DNA of 64,000 nucleotides from Eledone cirrhosa. Lineage: Eukaryota. Shown one piece after another: positions 24,063-53,646 of the stretch. How positions within the stretch are numbered: the stretch's first letter is position 1; every line of letters starts with the position of its first letter. A program made the position numbers and the translations under genes. The stretch is taken from contig OZ024743.1 in assembly GCA_964016885.1 (NCBI GenBank), positions 307,396,001 through 307,460,000 of the forward strand, written 5' to 3'. Below the pieces are notes generated by a model. The model did no database searches. It had not been told where the DNA came from and worked only from the letters and a program-made list of their open reading frames with translations.

Positions 24063-24064
24063 GC

Positions 24065-24690
24065 GGCACATACAGGGAAGCCTGCTTCAAACATGGTCTG
24101 CTGGAAAATGGTGCACAGTGGGATGACACATTATTCGAGGCTGCTATTTCGCAATCACCTCAACATCTACGGGCTCTGTTTGCCGTATTACTTCAAACAT
24201 GCGAAATGGGTAATCCAAACTCTTTGTGGCTTAAGTATAGAGATGACCTTTCGGAAGACTACAGACATCAGGTACTATTGTAGTACCCCGATATTGGAGG
24301 CACCAGTAAAGAGGTTTACAATCGAGCACTAATTGACCTAGAGGACAGGATTGTTTCATTTAGTGGGAATGATTTGCCCACATACGGTCTTCCCAAAACC
24401 CTCCGGTCAGGATTAGACACACTTCCTACAACTGTTCTATGGAAAAAGTCTTACGACATAGCTGCTCTTGCCCAATATGTCAATGAAATGGAACCACAAC
24501 TGCTTCCAGACAAACGCAATGCTTACAACAGTATTGTTGACAACGTGCGTCGTCGATCTGGTGGCATGTTCTTCTTGGATGCACCTGCTGGTACTGGGAA
24601 AACATTTGTAACCAAAGTCCTCCTCGCGAAAGTTAGACAACACGGACACATCGCGTTAGCTGTAGCCTCATCTGGGATTGCTGCTACTTT
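24065..24690 (+). mobile_element. Helitron RepHel fragment (start of PIF1-like helicase)
   Basis: YREAC..HGLLEN, LRALFAVLL, FFLDAPAGTGKTF, ALAVASSGIAAT; cut by a SINE. Confidence 0.88.
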
Positions 24691-24973
24691 GTGGTTAGAG
24701 CATTGGCCTTGCAATCGAAAGGTTGTCAGTTCAATTCTCAGACCAGGTGATGTGTTGTTTCCTTGAGCAAGACACTTTATTTCACATTGCTCCAGTTTAC
24801 TCAGCTGTAGAAATAACCTGGTCGTGGAGGTGCCACGGCAAAAAAGCACCTAGCACTCACTGTAAATGAGGTTGGTGTTAGGAAGGGCATCCAGCTGTAG
24901 AAATCAAGCCAGAATCAGTTCTCGTCCCAACCTTGCAAGCAGGGAAAAGCGGACGTAAAGTGATGATGATGAT
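24691..24973 (+). mobile_element. SINE family A, 5'-truncated and internally deleted
   Basis: Family match. Confidence 0.88.
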
Positions 24974-26490: not shown

Positions 26491-26542
<52 letters not shown>

Positions 26543-26575
26543 TACATGAATCAAAGTTCTGTTTAAATCATTTAT

Positions 26576-26624
26576 TTGCTTACAATTGTTTCTTCCAAAC
26601 CGAAGTTTGGAGTCTTCGGAGCAA
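26576..26624 (-). ncRNA. Type I hammerhead (CCGAAGA core) in the inverted terminal segment
   Basis: ttgct-CCGAAGA-ctccaaac-ttcg-gtttggaa-GAAAC-aatt-GTA-agcaa. Confidence 0.78.
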
Positions 26625-26711
26625 TTATTCAGTGATTTTTTACATACTTGACCTCCTTTTCAACACAAGAGACATATAGAAACATATGTATATATCAAAG
26701 ACCAACTCTCT

Positions 26712-29123
26712 ATGTCAACCAAGAACATACCAATGCCATCCAAAAATACATATGAAAAATTATTGATCGACAGTGTAAATTCCTTTATCAATAGAGTGAG
26801 ATGGAGGACATTCCATTATGATAAAAACAAATCTAACAAGGTTAATAATACTAACAAATTTGACTCCTTCGGCTTTAAAACCTTTAGAAGCCCCCCTCAT
26901 AACACACTACTAAACTCCTTTGAAAATGACCTAATAAAACTAGTTAAGAATATTAAATACAAAAAGCACCGTAATAAAAACAACACCTTCTTAAACAAAC
27001 TTAGCACCTCTATTAATGATTTCAAAACTAGTAATAAAATTATTGTACATGCGGACAAAACTAATAACATATGCAGCCTAGATTATAATACCTATAGAAA
27101 GTTTATATATAATGAACTACATAAAAGCTAGAAGAAAACCACTATGAAAAACTTAGAAGATATTAATATGGAAGGCTATAATATAGTGTCCAAACTAGGA
27201 CTCCAGAGACATACACAACCATATACCCCAAACCCCCCTAGATTCTCTCTGAAGGACCAGAAGGGGGACTTCATTAGCAACCCCTCGATTAGACTTATCT
27301 GCCCTTCCAAGTCTGACATTGGCATTATCAGTAAGAAAATTTTAGATAAAATCATCCCACAGATTAAACACAAGATATACCTTAAACAATGGGGAAATAT
27401 GGGTGGAGTTATTGAATGGTTCAAAGATATCAAGGATAACAAGGATAAAAAATGTATTCAATTTGATATCAATTCATACTACACCTCTATTTCCCCTATC
27501 CTATTAAATAAGGCACTTATCATGGCCATGGACAATAGTGACCTGACTAGACCCCAGATTGATGTCATACTTGCGGCCCGTAAAACAGTAATCACCTTTG
27601 AAGACCAATTATGGACCCGCAAAGATACGCAAAACAACTTCAACATAACCATGGGATCTAGTGACTCGGCGCAGGTCACTAATTTAGTCAGCCTATATTT
27701 ACTTAACGAAATCCATAGGGACCTTCCATACCTCAACGGTGGTTTGTACCACGATGGTGCACTTCTACTTATAGATTATAAAAAATTCAATATAGAAAGA
27801 ACTAGAAAACTACTGCACAAGACATTCAAAAACTATAACCTTAGTATTACCATGGACAAAAACACTAAAAACGTTAACTTCCTGGACGCCACCCTCTACC
27901 TAGACTCAAAGATATATGCACCTTTCCACAAACCTAATGAAAAACTCATTTACGTAGATACCAAGTCTAACCACCCTAGATCTATATTAAACTCTATCTC
28001 TAAGGGAGTATCTAATAGAATCTCTAATCTATCCTATGACGTAAACATATTTAGCAAAAACTCGCAATATTATAATCAGGCATTAGCTAGATCAGGCCAT
28101 AATATAGAGATCGAGTTCCTACCTACAAAAACACATAGCTACAACATTATTTTGCACAACATGTCCATGAGGAAATTTAGTAATAGGAATAACAACCACA
28201 CACTAATACGGAGGATACCAACAAAAGTAACCCACACCACAGAACCATAAAAGGAAACAACTCACCAGAGATAAAAAACAAAAATAGAAGAAATAATACA
28301 TTTTTCAACCCTCATTTCAATCTAAACGTCTCTACCAACCTACCTAGGGATTTCTTCTCACTACTAGATAAAAACTTCCCATCCGGCCACAAGTACCATA
28401 GCCTTTTAAACAAAAACACTATTAAAATCTCCTACTCTACTACGCCTAACATAGCATACCACATAGCTAGTAGCAATAAAAGAAAAATTAATTTTTACTT
28501 CCAGCAAACTAAATCACAACAGACGATAAACCTTCAAAATTATAGCAACTAACCCTAATATCAATAGAAATAATAGTAATAGCACTAGTGTAAACAATAA
28601 CGCTGGGAACGACAACCCACATAACCATAACCCTATAGCTACCATCCAGACTTCTACACAACATAATAACCGGCAGACTAACACCCAGAATAATTGTAAC
28701 TGTAGATCAAATAGAACCTGCCCTTTAGATAAAAAATGCTTAATCAAGGATATCATATACTCATGCACAGTCACAACTAGCAACTCTTCTGAAACCTATA
28801 TAGGCTCTACTTCAAACTGCTTCAAAACCAGATACAATTCGCACCTCCACTCTTTCAAAAAACACAGTCTGGCCAACTCCACTTCACTATCTAGCTACAT
28901 ACACTATCTAAAAACTAAAAATAAACAATATACACTTAAATGGGAAGTGATAGGTAACGCGACATCGTACAAACCACCTAATAAATTTTGTAACCTCTGT
29001 CTACTAGAGACCCATACTATCATCTTCTCAAACCATAACCTCCTTAATAAAAAATCAGAAGTGTTCGCGTCTTGCCAACACCGCTTCCGACACTCCTTCC
29101 AAAACTTTAAACCCAATATATAA
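26712..29123 (+). pseudogene. Naiad RT + GIY-YIG endonuclease, disrupted
   Basis: KNIP..RVRWR, ADKT, QFDINSYY, TMGS, GGLYHDG, FLD, CNC..CPL, IIY..YIGSTS, CNLC, CQH; in-frame TAG at 27129 and later frameshifts. Confidence 0.92.
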
Positions 29124-30619
29124 CAATGTCAGACTTGAACCCATCACCACCTCTAGCAACAAACATTAGGGGCACACCTTACACCTCATCTCCACACCCA
29201 TTAATCCACTTTAACGCAAATAGTGACATCCTCCTAGTACCTTTTACCCTAGAGATACCCCCATGTACTTCTACTTTTGGTATATTGGCCTTCAATTACT
29301 TAGACTACATTACACCAATATATAATTAATGTAAACTTTAAGCACGGAATTGGTTGTGCTAACATTGTCCTGGGTATGGAGTGCCATCATTGGATAAATG
29401 GAAGATTAATTAATTTATTAACATAAAAGAGCTATATAATCTATATGCTGAGTGCAATGAATTATGTACAGGTGATGTATGAGTTATAAATACATGTATG
29501 ACTTGATGGTCAGATTAGTGTCTTTGTAAGTGAGAATTGATCTCTGGACTACACTAGTGATATTTAACTTTGCCATGCAATCAGACATGCAATGACCCAG
29601 AGCTTACCAGGAGTCATATATAGAAGTGATTCTCATAAGACCCTGCCAGGTTCTGCGGGTGGACTACACTTACAAAGATCATTGATTTGGAGATCTGACT
29701 CTTCATGTAGAATATTCGGTTGTGGCACTCTATGATAGAAGGTAATCATCCTAATATGAACACCTTTAGTACTTCTTGATAGACTACACTGTAATTTATA
29801 GATAAGATACTTAAATTTAGAAATTGTTTATAACCTTATATGATAGGGACTCATTTGAGACACCATTAATGTACTTTAGGATAATAAATTTAGCTATAGA
29901 AATCAGCTAGTTACCTCCCCTTACGCATTAACTCCCCTTAATCACACACACACTTCCGGAATATAATACGATGTCAACTCTCACAACAAAAACAACCTGC
30001 TCTATAGAATCAAATTAGAGAATGACAAGCTGTGATGTTCTAACATGGTTCACCAGGCACCCAATGTTGAATCATCGTGGATTGTGTGATGGACATGTAG
30101 TCTATAAATTGCGTTTCCTGGATTGTGAGAGTGGTGGTGTGTGCGAGGACAGTGGTGCTGTTTTGCTTCTCATTTGTAATATTTTTGATATTTTTGGTGT
30201 TTCTCTACACACGGGCTTCTATATCGTACAGGTGTGTGTGAAAAATTCTTTACCAGTACAGCCCCCATGATGCTCTTGATTGCCTGCTTTGACTGCTTGT
30301 TTTACATGTAACAATCTGCCGCACTGTAATCTTGTATAAATAGGACACGCATGCATGCCTCACGTGTGACTGTTGCATACACTGGCTACTCCAAACTTTC
30401 CTCTTGCTTTATCTTCGTAAACTGCCAATGTTTTATTTTTATTTTTATTTAATTTTAACTTTAATTTTGTCCTTTAATATGACTGTAATCTTTGTATGTA
30501 AATTGCCATGCTATATTATTATAATGGATGTCAACCAACTGTGGGTCAATATATACATATGTTTCTATATGTCTCTTGTGTTGAAAAGGAGGTCAAGTAT
30601 GTAAAAAATCACTGAATAA

Positions 30620-30668
30620 TTGCTCCGAAGACTCCAAACCTCGGTTTGGGAGAAACAATTGTAAGCAA
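30620..30668 (+). ncRNA. Type I hammerhead (CCGAAGA core, palindromic stem III)
   Basis: ttgct-CCGAAGA-ctccaaac-ctcg-gtttggga-GAAAC-aatt-GTA-agcaa. Confidence 0.8.
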
Positions 30669-30870
30669 ATAAATGATTTAAACAGAACTTTGATTCATGT
30701 AATTTCTATATAACTGTCCTGTAAAACAACTGATGTTGTTACATTGAGCTATTTATCTTACTGGTAATAAGATAGTAATAAATTACTGTCTTTCACTATT
30801 TAGGGTTTAAAATATATATAACTATAAAAGGTTTTAGCACATACATAACCATAAATAGTATCCTTAATAC

Positions 30871-31660: not shown

Positions 31661-31875
31661 GGTTATATATACATATACATATATGTATATATATATATAT
31701 GTATATGTATATATATATATATGTATATGTATATATATATATGTATATATATGTATATATATATATGTATATGTATATATATATGTATATATATATATGT
31801 ATATGTATATATATATGTATATGTATATGTATATATGTATATGTATATATATATATGTATATGTATATATATGAA

Positions 31876-34676
31876 ATATATGAAATATTTAGCAAAAACT
31901 CACAATATTACAATCAAGCATTAGCTAGCTCCGGCCATAATATAGAAATTGAGTTCCTACCTAAGAAAACACATAGCTACAACATCATCTCGCACAACAT
32001 GTCCATGAGGAAACCTAATAATAGGAATAGCAACCACAAGTACACCAAAGCGGAGGGTGCCACCGGAAGTAACCATTACCATGGAAACTACTGTGGGGCC
32101 TTAGGAAGAAGCAACACACCAAACACTAAAAGCAAAAATAGAAGAAATAATACATTTTTCAACCCTCCTTTCAACCTAAATGTCTCCACCAACATACCTA
32201 GGGCTTTCTTCTCACTACTAGATAAAAACTTCCCTCTAGGACACAAGTACCACAACCTCTTAAACAAAAACACCATTAAAATCTCATACTCTACGACGCC
32301 TAACTTAGCATACAACATAGCTAGCAGCAATAATAGTAAAATTAGTTCTTACTTCCAACAAACAAAATCACAACGGGATGCAAACCCTCTAAATACCACT
32401 GTAGCAAGCAACCATAGCAACGGCAGTAACAATAGAAATAACACTAGTATAAGTAATAACACCAGGGTTGTCAACCCGAACGCCCAAAATCCTATAGCTA
32501 CCGCACAGACTTCCACACTGCATTATAACCAGCGGACTAACGCACAGGGTAATTGTAACTGTAGAGCTAATAGAACCTGCCCTTTAGATAAAAAATGCCT
32601 AACCAAGGATATCATATACTCATGCACCGTCACGACTAACAACTCTTCAGAAACCTATGTAGGCTCCACTTCTAACTGCTTCAAAATCAGATATAATTCG
32701 CACATCCACTCGTTCAAAAAGCACAGCCTAGCAAACTCCACCTCACTTTCTAGCTACATACACTATCTAAAAACTAAAAATAAACCATACACACTCAAAT
32801 GGGAAGTGATAGGCAGCGCGACCTCGTACAAACCACCTAATAAATTTTGTAACCTCTGTATACTAGAGACACATAATATTATCTTCTCCAACCGTAACCT
32901 ACTTAACAAAAAATCTGAGGTGTTTGCAACTTGCCAGCACCGCTTCAGACATTCCTTCCAAAACTTTAAGCCCAATATATAGCAATGTCGGACTGGAACC
33001 TAACACCACATCTAGCATCAAACACCAGAGACAGACCTTATACTACATACCCAACACTAACTGATCTATTATAACACAAACAACGACATCCCTCTGGAAC
33101 CCTTCGCAGGGAGAATACCCATTTATACCTCTACGTCAGGTGTGACAACATCCACCCACTTGAACGGCACTACACCGCTCTAAGGGTAATTTGAGCATGA
33201 ATTGATCGGTTGGATAGTGTTGTGCAGAGGAAACACCTTCCTTAGACAGATGAAAAATGATTTAATCTAGTAACGCTGTTGAGCAGTAGGATCAGGCTGC
33301 TGAGCGCAGTGAGTGAATGCATTGCAACTGCCGTGCGGGTTGTACATATATGGATGATCTGACGGTCAGAGAGGGGTCGCGAGGACTGCGGATGATTATC
33401 TTTCGACTTCCAATGTAGCAAGCGATGACCCAGAACTTACCAGAGATCATTGGGTCCTGAAGCAATCCTGCAATCACCGCGCCTGGTCCTATGAGTAGAC
33501 TACAACCACAGAGATCATTAATTTAGAATCCTCGCTCATCATCTATAATTTCCATTTGTGGCACCTTACGATGGGTTAATCCACCATAATAATATGATCA
33601 CCTTCAGCATAACTTAATTAAACTACTCTATAGTTAATACACTTTATGCTTTAAAAATTTTCTTGGAGGATGTGCATCACCATAGAAATTAGGGTCTATA
33701 TTGTGACACATTTTAATAGCTAGGTATAGAAACCCCGGAGTTACCTCCCCGCATGCATTAACTCCCCTTAGCCACACACACACTTCCGGGTGGTATTCAA
33801 TGGCGTTTCTCGAAACGTAACAGCCTCCTGTATTGAACTAAAGAACACCAGACTACGATCTCTAACTGGATTGTCAAACGCTCAATATCGGATTGTCGTG
33901 GATTATGTGAGGGGTATATAATCGAAAAATACACTCCCCTGACCATGAAAATGCCGAAGTACATGAAATACTTGACATCCCTTCGCTGTGCATCTCCAAT
34001 ACTTTTAACACTTTTAATGCTTGCACTATTTTTAATGCTTATAACATTTCTCCACACACAGACTATATCAATCATATAGAGAATTTGCCACCAGATCTAC
34101 CAACCTAACACTCTTGTTTACCTACCTAAGTGCCTCTACCACACATATCTCTCTGCCACACTATATAAATAAGACGCACATGCGTGCCACACATATAACA
34201 TTTGCACTATATAACCGCTTATCTTCATGTTGTATTTTAACCTGTATTTTTGATTTTTGATTGTACCTCTTAATATATATGTAATCTAGAAGTGTGTACT
34301 GCCACTCTAAATTCTGTAATGAATGTTGACCCACAATGTTTGAATATGTATCAATGTTTGAATATGTATCGGTATGTCTCTCGACTGAAAAGGAGGTCAT
34401 ATAACTGTCCATGTATTAATAAATTGCTCCGAAGAATCCAAACCTCGGTTTGGAGGAAACAGCTGTAAGCACAATAATGTTTTGAACAGTTCTTTGATTC
34501 TTATATTTCATATAACTGCTCTGTAAAGCATCTGATGTTTTTACATTGAGCTACTTAACTTACTGGTAATAAGGTAGTAATACATTACTGCCTACCACTA
34601 TTTAGGGTGTGTGTAAAATACTTATAACTGCATAAGGTTTTGTATTTACATAACCATAAATAGTATAACTAATACT
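31876..34676 (+). mobile_element. 5'-truncated Naiad element (GIY-YIG domain + 3' region)
   Basis: Open frame about 31880-32982 with FNPPF, KISYS, CNC..CPL, IIY..YVGSTS; 3' region parallels 29123-30870. Confidence 0.9.
34425..34471 (+). ncRNA. Type I hammerhead (CCGAAGA core, palindromic stem III)
   Basis: tgct-CCGAAGA-atccaaac-ctcg-gtttggag-GAAAC-agct-GTA-agca. Confidence 0.78.
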
Positions 34677-35346: not shown

Positions 35347-35382
35347 GTATATGTATATATATGTATATATATATATATATAT
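34677..35382. repeat. (TA)n/(TATG)n microsatellite
   Basis: Direct reading. Confidence 0.95.
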
Positions 35383-35978
35383 ACGTGAACGACAAAGCAT
35401 AAATGAATTGAGAGAGAGACTGAGCATAAGAGGAATCAAATGCTGCGTGCAGGAGAGGCGGTTACGCTGGTATGGACATGTGATGCGTATGAAGGATGAC
35501 AGCTGCATAAAAAGGTGCAGAGCACTAGAAGTTGATGGAAACCGCGGAGTGGGGAGACCCAAGATGACTTGGGATGAGGTGATAAAAGCCGACCTTACCC
35601 AACTACACCTCTCAAAGTCAATGACACACGACCGTGACTTCTGGCGTCACGCAGTAATACAGGGTACCCGACCTCCCATGGGTACATGCTGAAGCATATA
35701 AACAATATGCCCCCCCCCCCACCGCAAGGTGGTCGTGGAGGCGCCACGGCAAAAAAGCACCCAGCCCACACTGTAAAGTGGACGTGTAGGCGCCACGAAA
35801 AAGCACCCAGCACTCACTGTAAATGAGGTTGGTGTTAGGAAGGGCATCCAGCTGTAGAAATCAAGCCAGATCATTTCCTGTATGAGCAAGGCATGGTCAG
35901 CCGACCAGACACTGCCCACAACAGGACAACCCGTCTAACCCATGCTAGCGTGGAAGAACGGACGTAAAACGGTGATGA

Positions 35979-35982
<4 letters not shown>
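35380..35982 (+). mobile_element. RTE LINE 3' fragment with 3'UTR
   Basis: Near-identical to 41781-42394. Confidence 0.9.
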
Positions 35983-36020
<38 letters not shown>

Positions 36021-36117
36021 ATATATAGATAATATATAATATATATAATATATACATAATATATAATATATAATATATAATATATATATATAATATATAA
36101 TATATAGATAATATATA

Positions 36118-36156
<39 letters not shown>

Positions 36157-36164
36157 TAAAATAT

Positions 36165-36899
36165 ATGGTTATAGCTCTGATTTATCCAAATTATTGAGCC
36201 CTCTGCCGCACATATCGGATATTGTTTATCGTTAATTCGTAAGCTGTTTTTCCGATTCTCGATTATTCTACTATATTTAGCTCTAGACCTTAGCTATTGA
36301 CCAGTTAATTTTATTGATTATTTTTTTGTCGATCTTATTGACTGATGAATAGCTCCTGTTTATTTTAACACGTCTGTTGAGCACTCTGATTCGATATGTG
36401 ATATTTTGTATTCTTACATGATTTGCACATCACCAAAATGTTTCGCTAATGTAGAGGTTATCTCCTTTGCTGGGTACCATGTGCGTTTCTGGCTAAGGGT
36501 CTTCTCTTCATTATCGGACGAAATTCCCGTTGAGAAAGCTCTTCCGCGTCCCCCTTTCTCTAGAAGTCTCATATATTTTTTATGTGGGCTGATAGTGATT
36601 GGATTAAGGAATTGCAGAAACCCAAGAAGATAGATTTACCATCCTTCTAGCGGGTCCGGGTGAGTTTTATACATTCATTTCATTTATTGATTTATTGATA
36701 TTTTATTTGAGTGACCCGAATCTTCCTGGTCGTTCTTTTTCGGCTGTACGGGTGATTTTAGGCATGATCTCTATGTGTTGGTAATTTAACGATGGTTATA
36801 GCTCTGATTTATCCAAATTATTGAGCCCTCTGCCACACATATCGGATATTGTTTATCGTTAATTCGTAAGCTGTTTTTCCGATGCTCGATTATTCTACG
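36165..36899 (+). repeat. Diverged relative of the 615-bp satellite unit (about 1.2 units, period about 627 bp)
   Basis: ATGGTTATAGCTCTGATTTATCC occurs at 36165 and 36792; collinear with the array unit. Confidence 0.9.
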
Positions 36900-38160
36900 A
36901 TAATATATAATATATAGATAATATATAATATATATATATATAATATATAGATAATATATAATATATAGATATATAATATATATATATATAATATATAGAT
37001 AATATATAATATATAGATATATAATATATATATATATAATATATAATATATATATAATATATATATATAATATATAATATATAGATAATATATAATATAT
37101 AGATAATATATAATATATATATATATAATATATTATATATAATATATAATATATATATAATATATATATATATATAGATAATATATAATATATATATATA
37201 TAATATATTATATATAATATATATATAATATATATATATATATAGATAATATATAATATATAGATAATATATAATATATATATATATATAATATATATAT
37301 ATATATAGATAATATATAATATATAGATAATATATAATATATGGCTTAGTGGTTAGAGCATTGGCCTTGCAATCGAAAGGTTGTGAGTTCAATTCTCAGA
37401 CCGGGTGATGTGTTGTTTCCTTGAGCAAGACACTTTATTTCACATTGCTCCAGTTTACTCAGCTGTAGAAATGAGATGATAGGGACTGGGGTCCCTATCA
37501 TTCCACTGCAAAGTGGTCGTGGAGGTGCCACGGCAAAAAAGCACCCAGCACTCACTGTAAATGAGGTTGGTGTTAGGAAGGGCATCCAGCTGTAGAAATC
37601 AAGCCAGAATCAGTTCCCGTCCCACCCTTGCAAGCATATATATATATATATATATATACTATATATATATATATATTATATATATATATATATTATATAT
37701 ATATAATATATTATATATAATATATATATATATAATATATATATATATATAGTATATATACTATATATAGTATATATATATATATATAATATATATAATA
37801 TATATATATATATAGTATATATACTATATATAGTATATATATATATATATAATATATATATATATAATATATATATATATATAGTATATATACTATATAT
37901 ATATAATATATTATATATAATATATTATATATATATAATATATATATATATATAATATATATATATATATATAGTATATATATATATATATATAATATAT
38001 ATATATATAGTATATATACTATATATAGTATATATATATATATATAATATATATATATATATAGTATATATACTATATATATATAGTATATATACTATAT
38101 ATATATAAATATAATATATATATATATATAAATATAATATATATATATATATATATATAA

Positions 38161-38248
<88 letters not shown>

Positions 38249-38278
38249 TATAATATATATATATATATAATATATATA
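36900..38278. repeat. (TA)n-type microsatellite tracts
   Basis: Direct reading; contains a SINE. Confidence 0.95.
37341..37636 (+). mobile_element. SINE family A, tail lost
   Basis: Family match. Confidence 0.88.
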
Positions 38279-38508
38279 CAGTATTTACGTATCGAGAGAG
38301 AGAAAAAAAAAAGGGGGGGGGGGGGTGATAGGTGATACATATAGTTATTTGCCAAGTAGCGTATGCCAAAGGTGCTCGATACTAGTGCCGGCAGTATTAA
38401 ATATTCGAAGTGTTAATATTTAGTAGGCTAGAGAGTTAGCAGAGCATAAGCACGTGGGAAAGTAAAAAATCGGAGAATAGACCGTTAAAAAAATGTTTAT
38501 TTAAAACA

Positions 38509-38548
38509 GCACCTACGTATGTTTTGCCCAGTTGGGCTTCTCAAGGGC
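38509..38548 (-). ncRNA. Minimal hammerhead variant (UUGAGAA core, G12 replaced by A)
   Basis: gccc-TTGAGAA-gccc-aact-gggc-AAAAC-atac-GTA-ggtgc. Confidence 0.5.
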
Positions 38549-38974
38549 ATAAATAATCAAAAGTGTTCCTTACATTGCTCGGAAAGAGTTTTTTGGGTTA
38601 AATCCACGTCAAGGTTCATTGCACACAAAAATAGCTTGTTTTGATTTTGCAGCAGGTCAAGGGAGGTAACTCTGGCCGGTGTTAAGGCAGTCTTTCATGG
38701 ACAAATTGCCGCATCTGTTTGTCTGAGTCGTTTGAGGCTGGGTCTGGTCTGGTTTCTTGGGTGTTATTTTGCAGCGCCTGCCCGCCGGGGTGTTAAGACT
38801 TGTTGCAGGGAGATCCGGTGCACGGTTTCACTCCTCATCCTTAACCCATCTGAAGAAGGATATTTTTAAGCGATGTGTACAACTTATCACTGTTTCAGCT
38901 CTGCTGTTGATGAGCTCGTGGGGTGCAGTTATGATGTGGTTAGAGCTCCATGAGGCAAAGATCGCATTTCCTCT

Positions 38975-40750
38975 TGAACTTTAGTCTTAGCCAGGTTAAT
39001 TTTAAGGCCTTTTGATTCTAGGCCGTGCTTCCATGTTTGGAATTTCTTCTCTAGCTCGGCCATTGATTCAGCTATGAGCGTTAGATCATCTGCGTATAGG
39101 AGTTCCCATGGGCAGCCGGTCTTGAACTCCACTGTTATAGCCTGGAGGGCAATAATAAATAGTAGGGGGCTAAGAACAGATCCCTGATGAACACCAACTT
39201 TTACACTAAACTCTTCACTATATTCGTTGTTAATTCTAACCTTGCTGACTGTTTCTTTATACATGGCTTGTATAGTTCTCACAAGCCATTCATCAACACC
39301 TAGTTTTCTAAGAGCCCACCAGATAATGGAACGGGGGACTCTGTCGAAGGCCTTCTCCAAGTCGACGAAAGCTAAGTATAGGGGTTTACTTTTAGCTAGG
39401 TACTTCTCCTGTAGTTGTCGTACAATGAAAAGAGCGTCTGTGGTACTTTTTCCTGACACAAACCCGAACTGCATTTCAACTAGATCAATTCGCTCTCTGA
39501 TTAGTTGCGCTATTACTTTTTCTGTGACCTTCATGACCTGGTCGATTAATTTAATGCCTCTATAGTTACTCCTATCTAGGGCATCTCCTTTACCCTTATA
39601 ACAGTTAACGATGATGCTGCTACGCCAGTCCTTCGGAACAACCCCATTCTGTATGACTTGGTTGACTATCCGGGTGACCATGGTGTGTCTCACCGTACCA
39701 GATGCCTTCAGCATCTCGGCAACTATTTCCGAAGGCCCAGCTGCCTTGCCTGTCTTCATATCTTTGATTGCCTTACTTATTATACTACCCTCGACTAACA
39801 CTGCTGGTCCCTCTATTGGGTCGATGTGGGGGAGACTGTCTTTCTCCCATTTATTCTCCTCATTTAGTAGCCTTGCATAGTGACACTTCCAAGCTACCTT
39901 CTTATCGGCGTCGGTGATAGCAAGTACGCCGTCATCGTTAAGTACACACTTCTCCCCGACAATATCACTGTTTTCCTTGACACATTGCCTAGCAATCCTG
40001 AACACCTCACGTTTTTGGTCCTCACGTTGTAGAACATGCTTGAACTTTCTTTCCTCTGCTTCCCTTCTTGCGAAGTACACTTGTCTCCTAGCTTCCCTCC
40101 TGGCCACTTGATAGTCTTCTCTGCTTCCCCCATCCCGCCATACTTTCCAACCCTGCTTTTTGGCCTTAATTGACCCCTCCACCTTACTGTTCCACCACCA
40201 TGTTACTCTCCTCCTGCCTACAAGCCTGCTCCAGCCACAGACTTCGTCTGTCGCCGTCAGCAGGTTTGCTTTCAGGAATTCCCACTGTTCCTCTACCTTG
40301 TACGATTGCTCTTCCTTACTGTCGAAAGCATCAAGTAATATGCTTTGGAATTTATTTTTGTCTGTGGGGTCCTTTAGCTTCCATATTTTTCTCCTGAGGG
40401 TAGTCCTCTTCTGTTGTCTAGTACGTCTCGTCCTGACTATTAGGTCGCTAATTATCAGTCTATGTTGGGAGGTGCATTCTTCATCGGGGAGGGATTTAGT
40501 GTTTACAACAGTCACTTTGTCACGTCTTCAGGTAAGGATATAATCTACCTGGCTGGTATGTTCCCCTGATCTGTAGGTGATCAAGTGATTGTCTCGTTTT
40601 TTGAAGTTAGTGTTGCAGATAGTTAGGTTATTTGCGTCACAGAATTCCAGGATTCTGGAGCCTTCCTCATTTCTAGTACCAAACCCATAGCCTCCATGGA
40701 TTTCGTCGTAGCCGTCACAATGTTGTCCAACGTGACCGTTTAGGTCGCCT
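38975..40750 (-). mobile_element. RTE LINE internal fragment (end of APE + RT)
   Basis: GDLNGHVG, KAAGPS, YKGKGD, NYRGIKL, QFGF, DLEKAFD, QGSVLSP, YADD. Confidence 0.93.
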
Positions 40751-40782
40751 ATATATATATATTATATATATATATTATATAT

Positions 40783-40859
<77 letters not shown>

Positions 40860-40860
40860 T

Positions 40861-42394: not shown

Positions 42395-43148
<754 letters not shown>

Positions 43149-46100
43149 ATTTACAGAAACCCATGAAGCTAGATTTAACACCTTTCTAGTGGGTCCGGGT
43201 ATGATTTTACATTCATTTAAATTATTGACGTATTGTTTTATTGATATTTTTTATCTGTTTGGCCCGAATCTTCCTTTATCGATTTTAAATCGTATGGTTG
43301 ATTGTAGACTTGTTCTATATGTGACGGTATTTTAACGATAGTTATAGCTCTGATTCATCTGAATTATTGAGCCCTCTGCCGCTCATATCGAATTTCGTTT
43401 TTCGTGAACTCGTGCGCCGATTTTTCGATACTCGATCTTTCTAATATATTTAGCTCTGGACATAGCTATCCACCAGTTAATTTTATTGCTCATTTTTTGT
43501 CGATTCTATTGAGTGATGAATAGCTTTTGTTTTATTTTAACATGTCTATTGAGCACTCTAATTCGATATGTGTATTTCCACATTCACTCGAATTGTTTTC
43601 GCGGATATAGGGGTCATCTCCCTTGTCTAATGCCATGTGCGTTTTTCACCGCTAGTTGACTCCTTTGCCGCCAGGATAAAACTCGTTGACAACGTAAACT
43701 CCGTTCCACTTATTCTAGGAGGCTTTTATATTTATATGTGAGCTGATAGAGTACTGTCTAAGGATTTACAGAAACCCATGAAGCTAGATTTAACACCTTT
43801 CTAGTGGGTCCGGGTATGATTTTACATTCATTTAAATTATTGACGTATTGTTTTATTGATATTTTTTATCTGTTTGGCCCGAATCTTCCTTTATCGATTT
43901 TAAATCGTATGGTTGATTGTAGACTTGTTCTATATGTGACGGTATTTTAACGATAGTTATAGCTCTGATTCATCTGAATTATTGAGCCCTCTGCCGCTCA
44001 TATCGAATTTCGTTTTTCGTGAACTCGTGCGCCGATTTTTCGATACTCGATCTTTCTAATATATTTAGCTCTGGACATAGCTATCCACCAGTTAATTTTA
44101 TTGCTCATTTTTTGTCGATTCTATTGAGTGATGAATAGCTTTTGTTTTATTTTAACATGTCTATTGAGCACTCTAATTCGATATGTGTATTTCCACATTC
44201 ACTCGAATTGTTTTCGCGGATATAGGGGTCATCTCCCTTGTCTAATGCCATGTGCGTTTTTCACCGCTAGTTGACTCCTTTGCCGCCAGGATAAAACTCG
44301 TTGACAACGTAAACTCCGTTCCACTTATTCTAGTAGGCTTTTATATTTATATGTGAGCTGATAGAGTACTGTCTAAGGATTTACAGAAACCCATGAAGCT
44401 AGATTTAACACCTTTCTAGTGGGTCCGGGTATGATTTTACATTCATTTAAATTATTGACGTATTGTTTTATTGATATTTTTTATCTGTTTGGCCCGAATC
44501 TTCCTTTATCGATTTTAAATCGTATGGTTGATTGTAGACTTGTTCTATATGTGACGGTATTTTAACGATAGTTATAGCTCTGATTCATCTGAATTATTGA
44601 GCCCTCTGCCGCTCATATCGAATTTCGTTTTTCGTGAACTCGTGCGCCGATTTTTCGATACTCGATCTTTCTAATATATTTAGCTCTGGACATAGCTATC
44701 CACCAGTTAATTTTATTGCTCATTTTTTGTCGATTCTATTGAGTGATGAATAGCTTTTGTTTTATTTTAACATGTCTATTGAGCACTCTAATTCGATATG
44801 TGTATTTCCACATTCACTCGAATTGTTTTCGCGGATATAGGGGTCATCTCCCTTGTCTAATGCCATGTGCGTTTTTCACCGCTAGTTGACTCCTTTGCCG
44901 CCAGGATAAAACTCGTTGACAACGTAAACTCCGTTCCACTTATTCTAGTAGGCTTTTATATTTATATGTGAGCTGATAGAGTACTGTCTAAGGATTTACA
45001 GAAACCCATGAAGCTAGATTTAACACCTTTCTAGTGGGTCCGGGTATGATTTTACATTCATTTAAATTATTGACGTATTGTTTTATTGATATTTTTTATC
45101 TGTTTGGCCCGAATCTTCCTTTATCGATTTTAAATCGTATGGTTGATTGTAGACTTGTTCTATATGTGACGGTATTTTAACGATAGTTATAGCTCTGATT
45201 CATCTGAATTATTGAGCCCTCTGCCGCTCATATCGAATTTCGTTTTTCGTGAACTCGTGCGCCGATTTTTCGATACTCGATCTTTCTAATATATTTAGCT
45301 CTGGACATAGCTATCCACCAGTTAATTTTATTGCTCATTTTTTGTCGATTCTATTGAGTGATGAATAGCTTTTGTTTTATTTTAACATGTCTATTGAGCA
45401 CTCTAATTCGATATGTGTATTTCCACATTCACTCGAATTGTTTTCGCGGATATAGGGGTCATCTCCCTTGTCTAATGCCATGTGCGTTTTTCACCGCTAG
45501 TTGACTCCTTTGCCGCCAGGATAAAACTCGTTGACAACGTAAACTCCGTTCCACTTATTCTAGTAGGCTTTTATATTTATATGTGAGCTGATAGAGTACT
45601 GTCTAAGGATTTACAGAAACCCATGAAGCTAGATTTAACACCTTTCTAGTGGGTCCGGGTATGATTTTACATTCATTTAAATTATTGACGTATTGTTTTA
45701 TTGATATTTTTTATCTGTTTGGCCCGAATCTTCCTTTATCGATTTTAAATCGTATGGTTGATTGTAGACTTGTTCTATATGTGACGGTATTTTAACGATA
45801 GTTATAGCTCTGATTCATCTGAATTATTGAGCCCTCTGCCGCTCATATCGAATTTCGTTTTTCGTGAACTCGTGCGCCGATTTTTCGATACTCGATCTTT
45901 CTAATATATTTAGCTCTGGACATAGCTATCCACCAGTTAATTTTATTGCTCATTTTTTGTCGATTCTATTGAGTGATGAATAGCTTTTGTTTTATTTTAA
46001 CATGTCTATTGAGCACTCTAATTCGATATGTGTATTTCCACATTCACTCGAATTGTTTTCGCGGATATAGGGGTCATCTCCCTTGTCTAATGCCATGTGC

Positions 46101-49100
46101 GTTTTTCACCGCTAGTTGACTCCTTTGCCGCCAGGATAAAACTCGTTGACAACGTAAACTCCGTTCCACTTATTCTAGTAGGCTTTTATATTTATATGTG
46201 AGCTGATAGAGTACTGTCTAAGGATTTACAGAAACCCATGAAGCTAGATTTAACACCTTTCTAGTGGGTCCGGGTATGATTTTACATTCATTTAAATTAT
46301 TGACGTATTGTTTTATTGATATTTTTTATCTGTTTGGCCCGAATCTTCCTTTATCGATTTTAAATCGTATGGTTGATTGTAGACTTGTTCTATATGTGAC
46401 GGTATTTTAACGATAGTTATAGCTCTGATTCATCTGAATTATTGAGCCCTCTGCCGCTCATATCGAATTTCGTTTTTCGTGAACTCGTGCGCCGATTTTT
46501 CGATACTCGATCTTTCTAATATATTTAGCTCTGGACATAGCTATCCACCAGTTAATTTTATTGCTCATTTTTTGTCGATTCTATTGAGTGATGAATAGCT
46601 TTTGTTTTATTTTAACATGTCTATTGAGCACTCTAATTCGATATGTGTATTTCCACATTCACTCGAATTGTTTTCGCGGATATAGGGGTCATCTCCCTTG
46701 TCTAATGCCATGTGCGTTTTTCACCGCTAGTTGACTCCTTTGCCGCCAGGATAAAACTCGTTGACAACGTAAACTCCGTTCCACTTATTCTAGTAGGCTT
46801 TTATATTTATATGTGAGCTGATAGAGTACTGTCTAAGGATTTACAGAAACCCATGAAGCTAGATTTAACACCTTTCTAGTGGGTCCGGGTATGATTTTAC
46901 ATTCATTTAAATTATTGACGTATTGTTTTATTGATATTTTTTATCTGTTTGGCCCGAATCTTCCTTTATCGATTTTAAATCGTATGGTTGATTGTAGACT
47001 TGTTCTATATGTGACGGTATTTTAACGATAGTTATAGCTCTGATTCATCTGAATTATTGAGCCCTCTGCCGCTCATATCGAATTTCGTTTTTCGTGAACT
47101 CGTGCGCCGATTTTTCGATACTCGATCTTTCTAATATATTTAGCTCTGGACATAGCTATCCACCAGTTAATTTTATTGCTCATTTTTTGTCGATTCTATT
47201 GAGTGATGAATAGCTTTTGTTTTATTTTAACATGTCTATTGAGCACTCTAATTCGATATGTGTATTTCCACATTCACTCGAATTGTTTTCGCGGATATAG
47301 GGGTCATCTCCCTTGTCTAATGCCATGTGCGTTTTTCACCGCTAGTTGACTCCTTTGCCGCCAGGATAAAACTCGTTGACAACGTAAACTCCGTTCCACT
47401 TATTCTAGTAGGCTTTTATATTTATATGTGAGCTGATAGAGTACTGTCTAAGGATTTACAGAAACCCATGAAGCTAGATTTAACACCTTTCTAGTGGGTC
47501 CGGGTATGATTTTACATTCATTTAAATTATTGACGTATTGTTTTATTGATATTTTTTATCTGTTTGGCCCGAATCTTCCTTTATCGATTTTAAATCGTAT
47601 GGTTGATTGTAGACTTGTTCTATATGTGACGGTATTTTAACGATAGTTATAGCTCTGATTCATCTGAATTATTGAGCCCTCTGCCGCTCATATCGAATTT
47701 CGTTTTTCGTGAACTCGTGCGCCGATTTTTCGATACTCGATCTTTCTAATATATTTAGCTCTGGACATAGCTATCCACCAGTTAATTTTATTGCTCATTT
47801 TTTGTCGATTCTATTGAGTGATGAATAGCTTTTGTTTTATTTTAACATGTCTATTGAGCACTCTAATTCGATATGTGTATTTCCACATTCACTCGAATTG
47901 TTTTCGCGGATATAGGGGTCATCTCCCTTGTCTAATGCCATGTGCGTTTTTCACCGCTAGTTGACTCCTTTGCCGCCAGGATAAAACTCGTTGACAACGT
48001 AAACTCCGTTCCACTTATTCTAGTAGGCTTTTATATTTATATGTGAGCTGATAGAGTACTGTCTAAGGATTTACAGAAACCCATGAAGCTAGATTTAACA
48101 CCTTTCTAGTGGGTCCGGGTATGATTTTACATTCATTTAAATTATTGACGTATTGTTTTATTGATATTTTTTATCTGTTTGGCCCGAATCTTCCTTTATC
48201 GATTTTAAATCGTATGGTTGATTGTAGACTTGTTCTATATGTGACGGTATTTTAACGATAGTTATAGCTCTGATTCATCTGAATTATTGAGCCCTCTGCC
48301 GCTCATATCGAATTTCGTTTTTCGTGAACTCGTGCGCCGATTTTTCGATACTCGATCTTTCTAATATATTTAGCTCTGGACATAGCTATCCACCAGTTAA
48401 TTTTATTGCTCATTTTTTGTCGATTCTATTGAGTGATGAATAGCTTTTGTTTTATTTTAACATGTCTATTGAGCACTCTAATTCGATATGTGTATTTCCA
48501 CATTCACTCGAATTGTTTTCGCGGATATAGGGGTCATCTCCCTTGTCTAATGCCATGTGCGTTTTTCACCGCTAGTTGACTCCTTTGCCGCCAGGATAAA
48601 ACTCGTTGACAACGTAAACTCCGTTCCACTTATTCTAGTAGGCTTTTATATTTATATGTGAGCTGATAGAGTACTGTCTAAGGATTTACAGAAACCCATG
48701 AAGCTAGATTTAACACCTTTCTAGTGGGTCCGGGTATGATTTTACATTCATTTAAATTATTGACGTATTGTTTTATTGATATTTTTTATCTGTTTGGCCC
48801 GAATCTTCCTTTATCGATTTTAAATCGTATGGTTGATTGTAGACTTGTTCTATATGTGACGGTATTTTAACGATAGTTATAGCTCTGATTCATCTGAATT
48901 ATTGAGCCCTCTGCCGCTCATATCGAATTTCGTTTTTCGTGAACTCGTGCGCCGATTTTTCGATACTCGATCTTTCTAATATATTTAGCTCTGGACATAG
49001 CTATCCACCAGTTAATTTTATTGCTCATTTTTTGTCGATTCTATTGAGTGATGAATAGCTTTTGTTTTATTTTAACATGTCTATTGAGCACTCTAATTCG

Positions 49101-52100
49101 ATATGTGTATTTCCACATTCACTCGAATTGTTTTCGCGGATATAGGGGTCATCTCCCTTGTCTAATGCCATGTGCGTTTTTCACCGCTAGTTGACTCCTT
49201 TGCCGCCAGGATAAAACTCGTTGACAACGTAAACTCCGTTCCACTTATTCTAGTAGGCTTTTATATTTATATGTGAGCTGATAGAGTACTGTCTAAGGAT
49301 TTACAGAAACCCATGAAGCTAGATTTAACACCTTTCTAGTGGGTCCGGGTATGATTTTACATTCATTTAAATTATTGACGTATTGTTTTATTGATATTTT
49401 TTATCTGTTTGGCCCGAATCTTCCTTTATCGATTTTAAATCGTATGGTTGATTGTAGACTTGTTCTATATGTGACGGTATTTTAACGATAGTTATAGCTC
49501 TGATTCATCTGAATTATTGAGCCCTCTGCCGCTCATATCGAATTTCGTTTTTCGTGAACTCGTGCGCCGATTTTTCGATACTCGATCTTTCTAATATATT
49601 TAGCTCTGGACATAGCTATCCACCAGTTAATTTTATTGCTCATTTTTTGTCGATTCTATTGAGTGATGAATAGCTTTTGTTTTATTTTAACATGTCTATT
49701 GAGCACTCTAATTCGATATGTGTATTTCCACATTCACTCGAATTGTTTTCGCGGATATAGGGGTCATCTCCCTTGTCTAATGCCATGTGCGTTTTTCACC
49801 GCTAGTTGACTCCTTTGCCGCCAGGATAAAACTCGTTGACAACGTAAACTCCGTTCCACTTATTCTAGTAGGCTTTTATATTTATATGTGAGCTGATAGA
49901 GTACTGTCTAAGGATTTACAGAAACCCATGAAGCTAGATTTAACACCTTTCTAGTGGGTCCGGGTATGATTTTACATTCATTTAAATTATTGACGTATTG
50001 TTTTATTGATATTTTTTATCTGTTTGGCCCGAATCTTCCTTTATCGATTTTAAATCGTATGGTTGATTGTAGACTTGTTCTATATGTGACGGTATTTTAA
50101 CGATAGTTATAGCTCTGATTCATCTGAATTATTGAGCCCTCTGCCGCTCATATCGAATTTCGTTTTTCGTGAACTCGTGCGCCGATTTTTCGATACTCGA
50201 TCTTTCTAATATATTTAGCTCTGGACATAGCTATCCACCAGTTAATTTTATTGCTCATTTTTTGTCGATTCTATTGAGTGATGAATAGCTTTTGTTTTAT
50301 TTTAACATGTCTATTGAGCACTCTAATTCGATATGTGTATTTCCACATTCACTCGAATTGTTTTCGCGGATATAGGGGTCATCTCCCTTGTCTAATGCCA
50401 TGTGCGTTTTTCACCGCTAGTTGACTCCTTTGCCGCCAGGATAAAACTCGTTGACAACGTAAACTCCGTTCCACTTATTCTAGTAGGCTTTTATATTTAT
50501 ATGTGAGCTGATAGAGTACTGTCTAAGGATTTACAGAAACCCATGAAGCTAGATTTAACACCTTTCTAGTGGGTCCGGGTATGATTTTACATTCATTTAA
50601 ATTATTGACGTATTGTTTTATTGATATTTTTTATCTGTTTGGCCCGAATCTTCCTTTATCGATTTTAAATCGTATGGTTGATTGTAGACTTGTTCTATAT
50701 GTGACGGTATTTTAACGATAGTTATAGCTCTGATTCATCTGAATTATTGAGCCCTCTGCCGCTCATATCGAATTTCGTTTTTCGTGAACTCGTGCGCCGA
50801 TTTTTCGATACTCGATCTTTCTAATATATTTAGCTCTGGACATAGCTATCCACCAGTTAATTTTATTGCTCATTTTTTGTCGATTCTATTGAGTGATGAA
50901 TAGCTTTTGTTTTATTTTAACATGTCTATTGAGCACTCTAATTCGATATGTGTATTTCCACATTCACTCGAATTGTTTTCGCGGATATAGGGGTCATCTC
51001 CCTTGTCTAATGCCATGTGCGTTTTTCACCGCTAGTTGACTCCTTTGCCGCCAGGATAAAACTCGTTGACAACGTAAACTCCGTTCCACTTATTCTAGTA
51101 GGCTTTTATATTTATATGTGAGCTGATAGAGTACTGTCTAAGGATTTACAGAAACCCATGAAGCTAGATTTAACACCTTTCTAGTGGGTCCGGGTATGAT
51201 TTTACATTCATTTAAATTATTGACGTATTGTTTTATTGATATTTTTTATCTGTTTGGCCCGAATCTTCCTTTATCGATTTTAAATCGTATGGTTGATTGT
51301 AGACTTGTTCTATATGTGACGGTATTTTAACGATAGTTATAGCTCTGATTCATCTGAATTATTGAGCCCTCTGCCGCTCATATCGAATTTCGTTTTTCGT
51401 GAACTCGTGCGCCGATTTTTCGATACTCGATCTTTCTAATATATTTAGCTCTGGACATAGCTATCCACCAGTTAATTTTATTGCTCATTTTTTGTCGATT
51501 CTATTGAGTGATGAATAGCTTTTGTTTTATTTTAACATGTCTATTGAGCACTCTAATTCGATATGTGTATTTCCACATTCACTCGAATTGTTTTCGCGGA
51601 TATTAGGGGTCATCTCCCTTGTCTAATGCCATGTGCGTTTTTCACCGCTAGTTGACTCCTTTGCCGCCAGGATAAAACTCGTTGACAACGTAAACTCCGT
51701 TCACTTATTCTAGTAGGCTTTTATATTTATATGTGAGCTGATAGAGTACTGTCTAAGGATTTACAGAAACCCATGAAGCTAGATTTAACACCTTTCTAGT
51801 GGGTCCGGGTATGATTTTACATTCATTTAAATTATTGACGTATTGTTTTATTGATATTTTTTATCTGTTTGGCCCGAATCTTCCTTTATCGATTTTAAAT
51901 CGTATGGTTGATTGTAGACTTGTTCTATATGTGACGGTATTTTAACGATAGTTATAGCTCTGATTCATCTGAATTATTGAGCCCTCTGCCGCTCATATCG
52001 AATTTCGTTTTTCGTGAACTCGTGCGCCGATTTTTCGATACTCGATCTTTCTAATATATTTAGCTCTGGACATAGCTATCCACCAGTTAATTTTATTGCT

Positions 52101-52672
52101 CATTTTTTGTCGATTCTATTGAGTGATGAATAGCTTTTGTTTTATTTTAACATGTCTATTGAGCACTCTAATTCGATATGTGTATTTCCACATTCACTCG
52201 AATTGTTTTCGCGGATATAGGGGTCATCTCCCTTGTCTAATGCCATGTGCGTTTTTCACCGCTAGTTGACTCCTTTGCCGCCAGGATAAAACTCGTTGAC
52301 AACGTAAACTCCGTTCCACTTATTCTAGTAGGCTTTTATATTTATATGTGAGCTGATAGAGTACTGTCTAAGGATTTACAGAAACCCATGAAGCTAGATT
52401 TAACACCTTTCTAGTGGGTCCGGGTATGATTTTACATTCATTTAAATTATTGACGTATTGTTTTATTGATATTTTTTATCTGTTTGGCCCGAATCTTCCT
52501 TTATCGATTTTAAATCGTATGGTTGATTGTAGACTTGTTCTATATGTGACGGTATTTTAACGATAGTTATAGCTCTGATTCATCTGAATTATTGAGCCCT
52601 CTGCCGCTCATATCGAATTTCGTTTTTCGTGAACTCGTGCGCCGATTTTTCGATACTCGATCTTTCTAATAT
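43149..52672 (+). repeat. Tandem array of 615-bp non-coding units, about 15.5 copies
   Basis: TTACAGAAACCCATG recurs at 43151, 43766, 44381 and onward every 615 bp; units almost identical. Confidence 0.99.
43736..43827 (+). ncRNA. Candidate atypical hammerhead-like motif (one per 615-bp unit)
   Basis: atgtgag-CTGATAG-agta...taca-GAAA-ccca...ctaga/tctag-tggg-TC-...tttacat; good stem III, weak stems I and II, non-canonical core. Confidence 0.4.

Positions 52673-53644
<972 letters not shown>

Positions 53645-53646
<2 letters not shown>

What the first reader, a model, noticed from the sequence alone, without database searches (positions are those of the whole stretch)
36165..36899. Diverged permuted copy ends at the same point as the large array
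Seen: this 1.2-unit relative starts at a different phase (ATGGTTATAGCTC) from the array (ATTTACAGAAAC). Both stop at the same unit position, CTCGAT(T/C)(A/T)TTCTA, where the unit continues with TATAT, and both run into (TA)n. Inference: a fixed 3' end with variable 5' truncation and more than one unit length fits target-primed reverse transcription of a circular or multimeric RNA primed by TA microhomology. This argues for a mobile family rather than a static satellite.
Basis: partly seen in the sequence, partly recalled or inferred. Interest (0 to 1): 0.75.

Follow-up and report, generated by a model that had tools for sequence, protein, structure and literature searches.

The report
Hidden-hammerhead retrozyme with fixed insertion end
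This stretch is one of more than a thousand scattered copies of a 615-627-base non-coding repeat that almost all stop at the same point in TA microsatellites; it carries an unusual predicted self-cutting RNA and is likely pasted in by the enzyme of a Penelope-like jumping gene, likely from an RNA circle, which makes it a new variant of a known kind of animal element.

Summary
Observation confirmed and general. The 1.17-unit copy (627-nt unit) and the 15.5-unit array (615-nt unit) are 74% alike and belong to two subfamilies of one dispersed family (at least 421 and 750 exact right ends). Samples chosen blind to the right end stop at one position (28/28, 13/14, 29/29); left ends scatter. The fixed end is not the RNA end: it lies ~245 nt past the predicted cut, and left ends pile up just after the cut (24/131, 11/25). 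A hairpin ~70-90 nt before the end recurs in a TA-targeting Hydra-clade Penelope element with intact ORFs. Arrays up to 26.6 units carry one haplotype each. Best reading: a retrozyme primed internally by a Penelope RT, probably on a circle. Not shown: cleavage, circles, expression, helper identity; a predicted sign of repeated copying failed to replicate (3/27, then 0/15). The scan noted similar retrozymes elsewhere in this genome.

The parts
36165..36898 (+). The finding: 5'-truncated 1.17-unit insertion of the 627-nt subfamily (partial unit 36165-36270, full unit 36271-36897)
36526..36660 (+). Predicted type I hammerhead variant: stem I 36526-36529 with 36657-36660, core UUGAGAA 36530-36536, long stem II arm 36537-36616, GAAA 36617-36620, extended stem III, GUC with predicted cut after 36656
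36801..36826 (+). GCUC-stem-2-nt-bulge-GAGC hairpin before the fixed right end; candidate recognition signal for the helper RT (second copy in the partial unit at 36174-36199)
35981..36166 (.). Left TA-rich target tract
36899..37342 (.). Right TA/GATA-rich target tract
43151..52668 (+). 15.5-unit array of the young 615-nt subfamily; one haplotype, 3 single-unit differences; hammerhead variant in all 15 complete positions (first predicted cut after 43810)
42395..43150 (.). Left TA tract of the array
52669..53646 (.). Right TA tract of the array
26538..30870 (+). Broken copy of the Hydra-clade Penelope-like element proposed as helper family (RT and C-terminal GIY-YIG-type pieces, inverted 5' arm, hammerhead with CCGAAGA core, ends in TA)
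31875..34675 (+). Second, 5'-truncated Hydra-clade copy; carries the shared hairpin at 34518-34551, 124 nt before its fixed end

Best explanation
The element is a non-coding mobile repeat with a predicted hammerhead ribozyme in every unit (a retrozyme), likely inserted into TA microsatellites by the reverse transcriptase and endonuclease of a Hydra-clade Penelope-like element, likely from a one-unit RNA circle. Shown in sequence: one fixed right end, scattered left ends, TA targets, single-haplotype arrays of up to 26.6 units, a conserved covarying hammerhead fold, left ends piled up just 3' of the predicted cut, and a hairpin shared with the Penelope element. Inferred steps: (1) arrays are transcribed on the + strand; (2) the ribozyme cuts at GUC, giving unit-length RNA that can be ligated; (3) the helper nicks (TA)n and primes cDNA at an internal UA-rich site about 245 nt 3' of the cut, chosen by the hairpin (UAUAU pairing helps but does not choose the site); (4) on a cut monomer the RT runs off after about 0.4 unit, on a circle it goes round until it falls off or meets a cut, again near the ribozyme site; (5) the left junction is closed through TA-like microhomology; (6) old arrays tend to shrink to 1.x units, of which this copy may be one. 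Odds by step: retrozyme with a working hammerhead 0.85-0.9, Penelope-type helper 0.85 (this Hydra family 0.7), circle as the main template of long arrays 0.6.
For: Fixed end: 28/28 small-type loci, 13/14 array-type loci found by an internal junction, 29/29 loci of other subfamilies within the last 10 profile positions, 27 of them running into a TA tract; 750 and 421 exact ends, controls 0; TA loose ends at the same place in contigs of three short-read runs of one sample. Ribozyme: one block combination found in 12 of 14 units by a scan that finds 4 of 4 control hammerheads; matched in 21 of 22 loci tried; 97% of cells paired, 4 of 8 stem II pairs with changes on both sides, stem I varying only between G-C and G-U on the + strand; it is the unconstrained minimum-energy fold of the 143-nt segment in both subfamilies. 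U3-A8, helix II of 7-8 bp, helix I of 4-5 bp and an unpaired base at the start of helix II are reported for Penelope-element hammerheads (PMC4209133). Left ends: the richest 28-nt window of the unit starts at the first base after the predicted cut: 24/131, next window 0, expected 9.2 with A/T weighting, 0 of 5000 simulations as high in any window; small subfamily 11/25, neighbours 2 and 0. Helper: hairpin in 16/18 units on +, 0/18 on -, and in 8/10 Penelope 3' ends, background 0.05-0.2%, 100% paired with compensatory changes; a rare second end just before the hairpin (12 exact matches, 4 of 6 fetched are two-armed) matches where inverted arms of the Penelope element end; two intact ORFs of 829 and 830 aa. 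Monomer bottleneck: 37 loci of 2 or more units give 28 haplotypes, within-array divergence 0-0.8%, 15 loci with private variants fixed in all units; small subfamily 1.9% within vs 4.1% between loci. Born long: 5 or more units in 15/48 youngest vs 2/42 older loci.
Against: No cleavage, circle or transcript was observed. The core departs from consensus: U3-A8 in most, but C3 with A8 (an unpaired 3-8 position) in one subfamily and U3-G8 in some copies, and A-A or C-A at 10.1-11.1; stem III never varies, so it gives no covariation; this copy's stem II has two mismatches and its folding z-score is only -1.0. Rfam finds no ribozyme. No sequence homology to the proposed helper's 3' region beyond the hairpin, and the hairpin was noticed by eye before it was counted. 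I had seen the left-end cluster before finding the ribozyme. The predicted mark of repeated copying (interspersed variants at one site, near the left end) was seen in 3/27 arrays but in 0/15 new arrays (chance of 0 about 0.22), and could not be checked in reads. Variants shared by adjacent units in four arrays show some DNA-level turnover. Length vs age over all unbiased loci is weak (rho -0.14, p 0.2). Homogeneous young arrays could serve as linear templates just as well.
Confidence: 0.6

Rival explanations
1. Same element and helper, but long arrays are copied from long linear read-through transcripts of a parent array that the slow ribozyme has cut only here and there; no circle is needed.
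For: Young arrays are homogeneous, so their transcripts would give homogeneous daughters; left ends at the cut site fit any cut linear RNA; Penelope-type hammerheads cleave weakly in vitro (PMC4209133).
Against: Private variants fixed in all units of 15/37 arrays need a one-unit bottleneck; arrays of 16-17 kb need parents at least as long, and lengths would shrink each generation; three arrays show several states at one site in no block order, though this did not replicate.
Confidence: 0.22
2. The template is a cut linear monomer that the RT copies again and again by jumping from its 5' end back to its 3' end, as telomerase does on its short template.
For: Explains the monomer bottleneck and stops at the cut site without ligation; Penelope RTs are relatives of telomerase RT (PMC8557442); a short jump-back duplication lies next to the cut site in one locus (L334).
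Against: Internal junctions at the cut site show no added or lost bases: no variable site at unit positions 366-370 in any array except one substitution in one partial unit.
Confidence: 0.08
3. Insertions start as pieces of at most about 1.4 units and grow afterwards into arrays by DNA-level duplication (a mobile seed plus satellite turnover).
For: Gives one haplotype per array; four arrays have variants shared by neighbouring units.
Against: The longest arrays are the youngest, often identical to arrays on other chromosomes, and older loci are enriched for 1-2 units (19/42 vs 8/48); in a two-armed locus both arms exceed one unit (L313).
Confidence: 0.06
4. DNA rolling-circle (Helitron-like) or static satellite.
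For: One fixed end and tandem copies are also seen in rolling-circle DNA elements (own knowledge).
Against: Strand-specific G-U covariation and a ribozyme fold; left ends tied to an RNA cut site; the right end is not a conserved CTRR across subfamilies; loci are dispersed on both strands.
Confidence: 0.02

Closest known systems
Animal non-LTR retrozymes (PMC7229834; bioRxiv 10.64898/2026.07.22.740005)
   Same: Non-coding tandem units of low GC (36-37%), a type I hammerhead in each unit, dispersed monomers to multimers, proposed circle copied by a Penelope RT; unit length within the 51-972 bp range of the preprint.
   Different: Core UUGAnRA instead of CUGAnGA, stem II arm of about 80 nt and extended stem III (about 135 nt in all), missed by Rfam and by a standard motif scan; unit about twice the typical 300 nt; ends mapped here (fixed internal priming site, left ends at the cut), which the parts of these papers that I read do not report; circles and cleavage are shown there, not here.
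Hammerheads in pLTRs of Penelope-like elements (PMC4209133)
   Same: U3-A8 variant (Schistosoma Cercyon), helix II 7-8 bp, helix I 4-5 bp, unpaired base at the start of helix II.
   Different: Those have minimal helix III and act as dimers; this one has a full stem III and a large loop II, and sits in an element with no ORF.
Hydra-clade Penelope-like elements and non-autonomous Chlamys/MRC1 (PMC8557442)
   Same: (TA)n targets, 5' truncation, partial or multicopy head-to-tail insertions, occasional inverted 5' arm; shared 3' hairpin and second end with the Hydra family of this genome.
   Different: No ORF; no alignable sequence with the helper outside the hairpin; inverted arms are rare (2/122 and 0/42 loci).

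Membership tests
Animal non-LTR retrozymes | Head-to-tail tandem units, dispersed in many loci | tested here: met
   0.07-26.6 units at 100 loci of one chromosome; 1,417 exact internal junctions
Animal non-LTR retrozymes | Type I hammerhead fold in each unit | tested here: met
   Predicted: C-G-S order, three stems, 16 matches in the window, 21/22 loci; a variant core (UUGAnRA) with precedent in Penelope elements, not the consensus CUGAnGA
Animal non-LTR retrozymes | No protein coding | tested here: met
   Longest stop-free frame 94 aa over three joined units, both strands
Animal non-LTR retrozymes | Self-cleavage of transcripts | not testable with these tools
   Only indirect: left ends pile up after the predicted cut
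Animal non-LTR retrozymes | Expression as unit-length linear and circular RNA | tested here: inconclusive
   No holder on record as RNA; contigs only
Non-autonomous elements moved by Penelope-like elements | Fixed 3' side, variable 5' truncation, partial tandems, (TA)n targets | tested here: met
   (67/95 left flanks TA-like)
Non-autonomous elements moved by Penelope-like elements | Inverted 5' arm next to the main copy | tested here: met
   Present but rare: 2/122 array-type, 0/42 small-type loci; 4/6 second-site loci two-armed
Non-autonomous elements moved by Penelope-like elements | Similarity to the 3' end of an autonomous partner | tested here: inconclusive
   No alignable sequence with the one Hydra family examined; shared hairpin and second end; other Penelope families of the genome were not surveyed
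Hydra-clade Penelope-like elements (for the proposed helper only) | C-terminal EN, RWK-like and DKT motifs, CxCX5C linker, CxxC and CxH, hammerhead, TA insertion | tested here: met
   Read from the ORF of L221 and L222 (RWR, DKT, CNCRSSRTC, CNLC, CQH) against PMC8557442 section 11; atlas neighbours carry HTH_animal, GIY-YIG, RVT_1; no tree built; Pfam and PDB gave nothing
Non-circularly permuted hammerheads (PMC10085705) | Block order SGC, CSG or GCS | tested here: not met
   The only conserved combination has the classic C-G-S order
Helitron-type rolling-circle DNA elements | Conserved 3' CTRR and a defined 5' end (recalled) | tested here: not met
   Right ends read CTAC, CTAA or TTTG by subfamily; no fixed left end

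The most novel reading that the evidence does not exclude
A class of large, descriptor-invisible hammerhead retrozymes whose genomic copies record the whole cycle: a Penelope RT docks on a small bulged hairpin shared with its own RNA, primes inside the unit, copies one RNA circle up to 26 times or more, stops where the circle cuts itself, and in a few arrays writes down the repeated misreading of one damaged base of that single RNA molecule.
Probability: 0.33. Interest if true: 0.75.

Novelty: new variant of a known kind. Interest (0 to 1): 0.52.

Why it matters
Rolling-circle reverse transcription of retrozymes by Penelope enzymes has been proposed since 2014 (PMC4209133, PMC7229834) and was not shown in the passages I read. 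This very young family names the parts needed to test it: an RNA, a predicted cut site, a priming site, a candidate recognition hairpin and an intact candidate enzyme. It also shows that standard hammerhead descriptors miss whole retrozyme families, so some repeats filed as satellites or as ribozyme-free may be retrozymes. The kind of element is known, and this scan has already noted several such families in the same genome, which limits the surprise.

Tried and rejected
Rfam at E up to 10 on 35900-44500 and on two array units: no ribozyme. My first hammerhead scans found nothing: one search allowed only 60 nt before GAAA, one search lacked the U3-A8 core, one search had a matching fault and found 2 of 4 controls; until I read the family as ribozyme-free. 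CUGAUGA near unit position 70 is not the core (broken in the youngest subfamily, no matching stems). Hairpin, HDV-like and twister readings of the conserved block were tried by eye and do not fit (hairpin needs G+1, PMC8216279 passages). A G|GTRAG donor-like word follows the GUC; it is explained by stem I and was not pursued. Profile and BLAST search for the unit in the helper's 3' region: nothing. The most distant subfamily is not attached to an ORF in 6/6 loci. RNA evidence: no RNA holder listed; the run guessed to be RNA gave 8 short pieces; neither for nor against. Check of an interspersed variant in independent runs: no listed contig bridged it, inconclusive. Prediction of interspersed variants in a new set: 0/15. 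A second right end at the TTATA before the hairpin: 0 matches; the true second end lies about 5 nt earlier. Local duplication of the two window loci: rejected. Rows dropped: L291 (anchored on the wrong copy); 4 loci whose left end could not be read; duplicate rows of one locus. 4 of the 40 planned test loci were never fetched. Literature searches found no paper on this family or on cephalopod retrozymes; supplements of PMC8557442 (Hydra families, hammerhead lists) were not read and those of the bioRxiv preprint are closed; either may bear on novelty.

Full report
OBSERVATION. The finding is unit positions 522-627 followed by one full 627-nt unit. The array at 43151-52668 holds 15.5 units of 615 nt with three single-unit differences. 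The two are 74% alike, start at different phases and stop after the same TTCTA, between TA-rich tracts. The window lies in a 3.0-Gb animal genome; I did not identify the organism (earlier AI notes call it an octopod, unchecked).

A MOBILE FAMILY WITH ONE RIGHT END. Exact patterns give 750 array-type ends (375 per strand), 421 small-type ends, 1,417 array-type internal junctions and 120 core motifs of other subfamilies, all with control 0. Subfamilies are 53-94% alike. Samples blind to the right end: a mid-unit query gave 28 independent small-type loci, all ending at position 627; the first 100 internal junctions fall in 14 loci, 13 ending at 615 and one broken off mid-unit; 29 loci of other subfamilies all end in the last 10 profile positions, 27 running into a TA tract. 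Contigs of three short-read runs of one sample show TA loose ends at the same place. Left ends take 96 positions in 131 loci and favour A/T-rich words; 67 of 95 left flanks are TA-like. Both window loci follow the same RTE-type 3' end (98.8%), but that piece has many 98-100% copies, so no shared duplication is needed.

A HIDDEN HAMMERHEAD. Rfam and my first scans found no ribozyme. Earlier notes of this scan led me to scan the three hammerhead blocks in any order (PMC10085705, parts 1 and 3 of 8 read). With a matching fault fixed, the scan found 4 of 4 control hammerheads and one combination in 12 of 14 units, in the classic type I order: stem I, UUGAnRA, an A-A or C-A mismatch, an 8-bp stem II closing a loop of about 58 nt, GAAA, stem III with a long extension, GUC, stem I. 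It matched 21 of 22 loci tried and occurs 16 times in the window. On 18 sequences 97% of cells pair; 4 of 8 stem II pairs change on both sides; stem I alternates only between G-C and G-U, which fixes the + strand as the RNA; stem III never varies. The fold is the unconstrained minimum for both subfamilies, with a modest z-score of -1.0 for this copy, whose stem II has two mismatches; in the folded whole circle of the small type stems I and III are not formed. One subfamily has C3 with A8 and some copies U3 with G8. U3-A8, a long helix II, a short helix I and an unpaired base opening helix II are described for Penelope-element hammerheads (PMC4209133, passages); a mismatch at 10.1-11.1 has a natural precedent (PMC3088659, passages). 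Cleavage is untested.

WHAT THE ENDS SAY. The predicted cut lies after unit position 367 (array type) or 386 (small type), about 245 nt before the fixed right end. So the fixed end is an internal priming site, and a cut monomer can give only 0.4 unit. The richest 28-nt window for left ends starts at the first base after the cut: 24 of 131, against 0 in the next window, 8 in the one before and 9.2 expected with A/T weighting; none of 5000 simulations reached 24 in any window. It holds 16 of 49 copies under one unit and 8 of 82 longer ones. In the small subfamily 11 of 25 loci of one unit or more end in the same window, 2 before and 0 after. I had seen the cluster before I found the ribozyme, but the window's start comes from the structure. 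This is indirect evidence that the RNA is cut in vivo and is the template. By hand count, 106 of 135 loci run through the cut site at least once.

THE LIKELY HELPER. The window and genome are rich in a Penelope-like element (63,444 first-look candidates) with the features of the Hydra clade (PMC8557442, abstract, passages, sections 11 and 15), inserted in (TA)n; two copies have open frames of 829 and 830 aa (atlas neighbours; Pfam and PDB blank). It shares no alignable sequence with the unit. It does share a hairpin, GCUC, a stem, a 2-nt bulge, GAGC: 16 of 18 units on + and 0 on -, 8 of 10 Penelope 3' ends, 0.05-0.2% in shuffles; all 105 cells pair, with compensatory changes. A rare second right end just before this hairpin has 12 exact matches; 4 of 6 fetched are two-armed, and inverted arms of the Penelope element end at the equivalent place. 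Abutting inverted arms are rare overall: 2 of 122 and 0 of 42. Other Penelope families were not surveyed, so the helper is likely, not shown.

CIRCLE OR NOT. For: 100 loci of one chromosome run from 0.07 to 26.6 units; 37 with two or more units give 28 haplotypes, 0-0.8% divergence inside arrays and private variants fixed in all units of 15 loci; small-type loci differ 1.9% within and 4.1% between; arrays of five or more units are 15 of 48 youngest against 2 of 42 older loci (p 0.002), and 1-2 units 8 of 48 against 19 of 42 (p 0.005), so arrays are born long and this 1.17-unit copy may be a collapsed one. Three of 27 arrays have one site that varies from unit to unit in no block order; two lie within 3 nt of the left end and one has four states. 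That looks like repeated misreading of one damaged base. Against: I wrote this down as a prediction and found 0 such sites in 15 new arrays (Fisher p 0.54, chance of zero about 0.22); reads did not settle it; four arrays share variants between adjacent units; the overall length-age correlation in the unbiased set is not significant; no RNA run was available. Linear multimer transcripts remain a serious rival.

COMPARISON AND VERDICT. It works like, and by the features testable here is, an animal non-LTR retrozyme (PMC7229834, passages and Discussion; bioRxiv 10.64898/2026.07.22.740005, parts 1-2 of 5). Cleavage and circular RNA, which those papers show for other families, are untested here. 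It differs in its large variant hammerhead and long unit. Searches showed no paper on this family; supplements were not read. The scan had no look-alike of this sequence but has noted other retrozyme families in this genome, including one with a U3-A8 core, two-site ends and a Hydra hairpin; those are unchecked AI notes and not independent support. Verdict: new variant of a known kind; interest 0.52.

Noticed in passing
window 26538-30870, 31875-34675, 13537-18372, 53641-54663: Broken Hydra-clade Penelope-like copies; one family has a hammerhead with a CCGAAGA/CCGAUGA core and a mismatch opening stem II, others have canonical CUGAUGA hammerheads (26483 and 15685 on the - strand).
   Followed up: partly
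L221 and L222 (C2:230.08 Mb, C17:4.67 Mb): Penelope-like copies with open frames of 829-830 aa; a second, smaller copy of the GCUC hairpin follows 8 nt after the pLTR end.
   Followed up: partly
window 35381-35985 and 41783-42388: Young RTE-type 3' end with a (GAT)n tail running into (TA)n; both retrozyme loci of the window landed in such tails.
   Followed up: yes
L315, L027, L015, L180: Copies of different subfamilies sit next to each other; in L315 a young array begins right at the end of an older-type copy, so TA tails are reused as targets.
   Followed up: no
L318, leftmost partial unit: Four substitutions in 417 nt while the other seven units are identical: an error burst at the end of synthesis, a template switch or an assembly edge.
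   Followed up: no
27 arrays: T>C on the + strand is the commonest single-unit substitution (13 of 39); earlier notes report editing-like marks in other families; not tested.
   Followed up: no
L174, L015, L176, L181 flanks: Another short TA-inserted non-coding element with long inverted repeats and a constant end recurs beside this family.
   Followed up: no
window 37342-37640, 20413-21050: tRNA-headed SINE-like repeat, 97% alike between copies.
   Followed up: no
window 299-9922; 38929-42094, 58639-60359; 23759-24766, 56567-59484, 63016-63543: Tandem Tx1/L1-like retrotransposon copies with endonuclease and RT frames; RTE-type RT frames; Helitron Rep/helicase fragments (names from my reading of the translations).
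   Followed up: no
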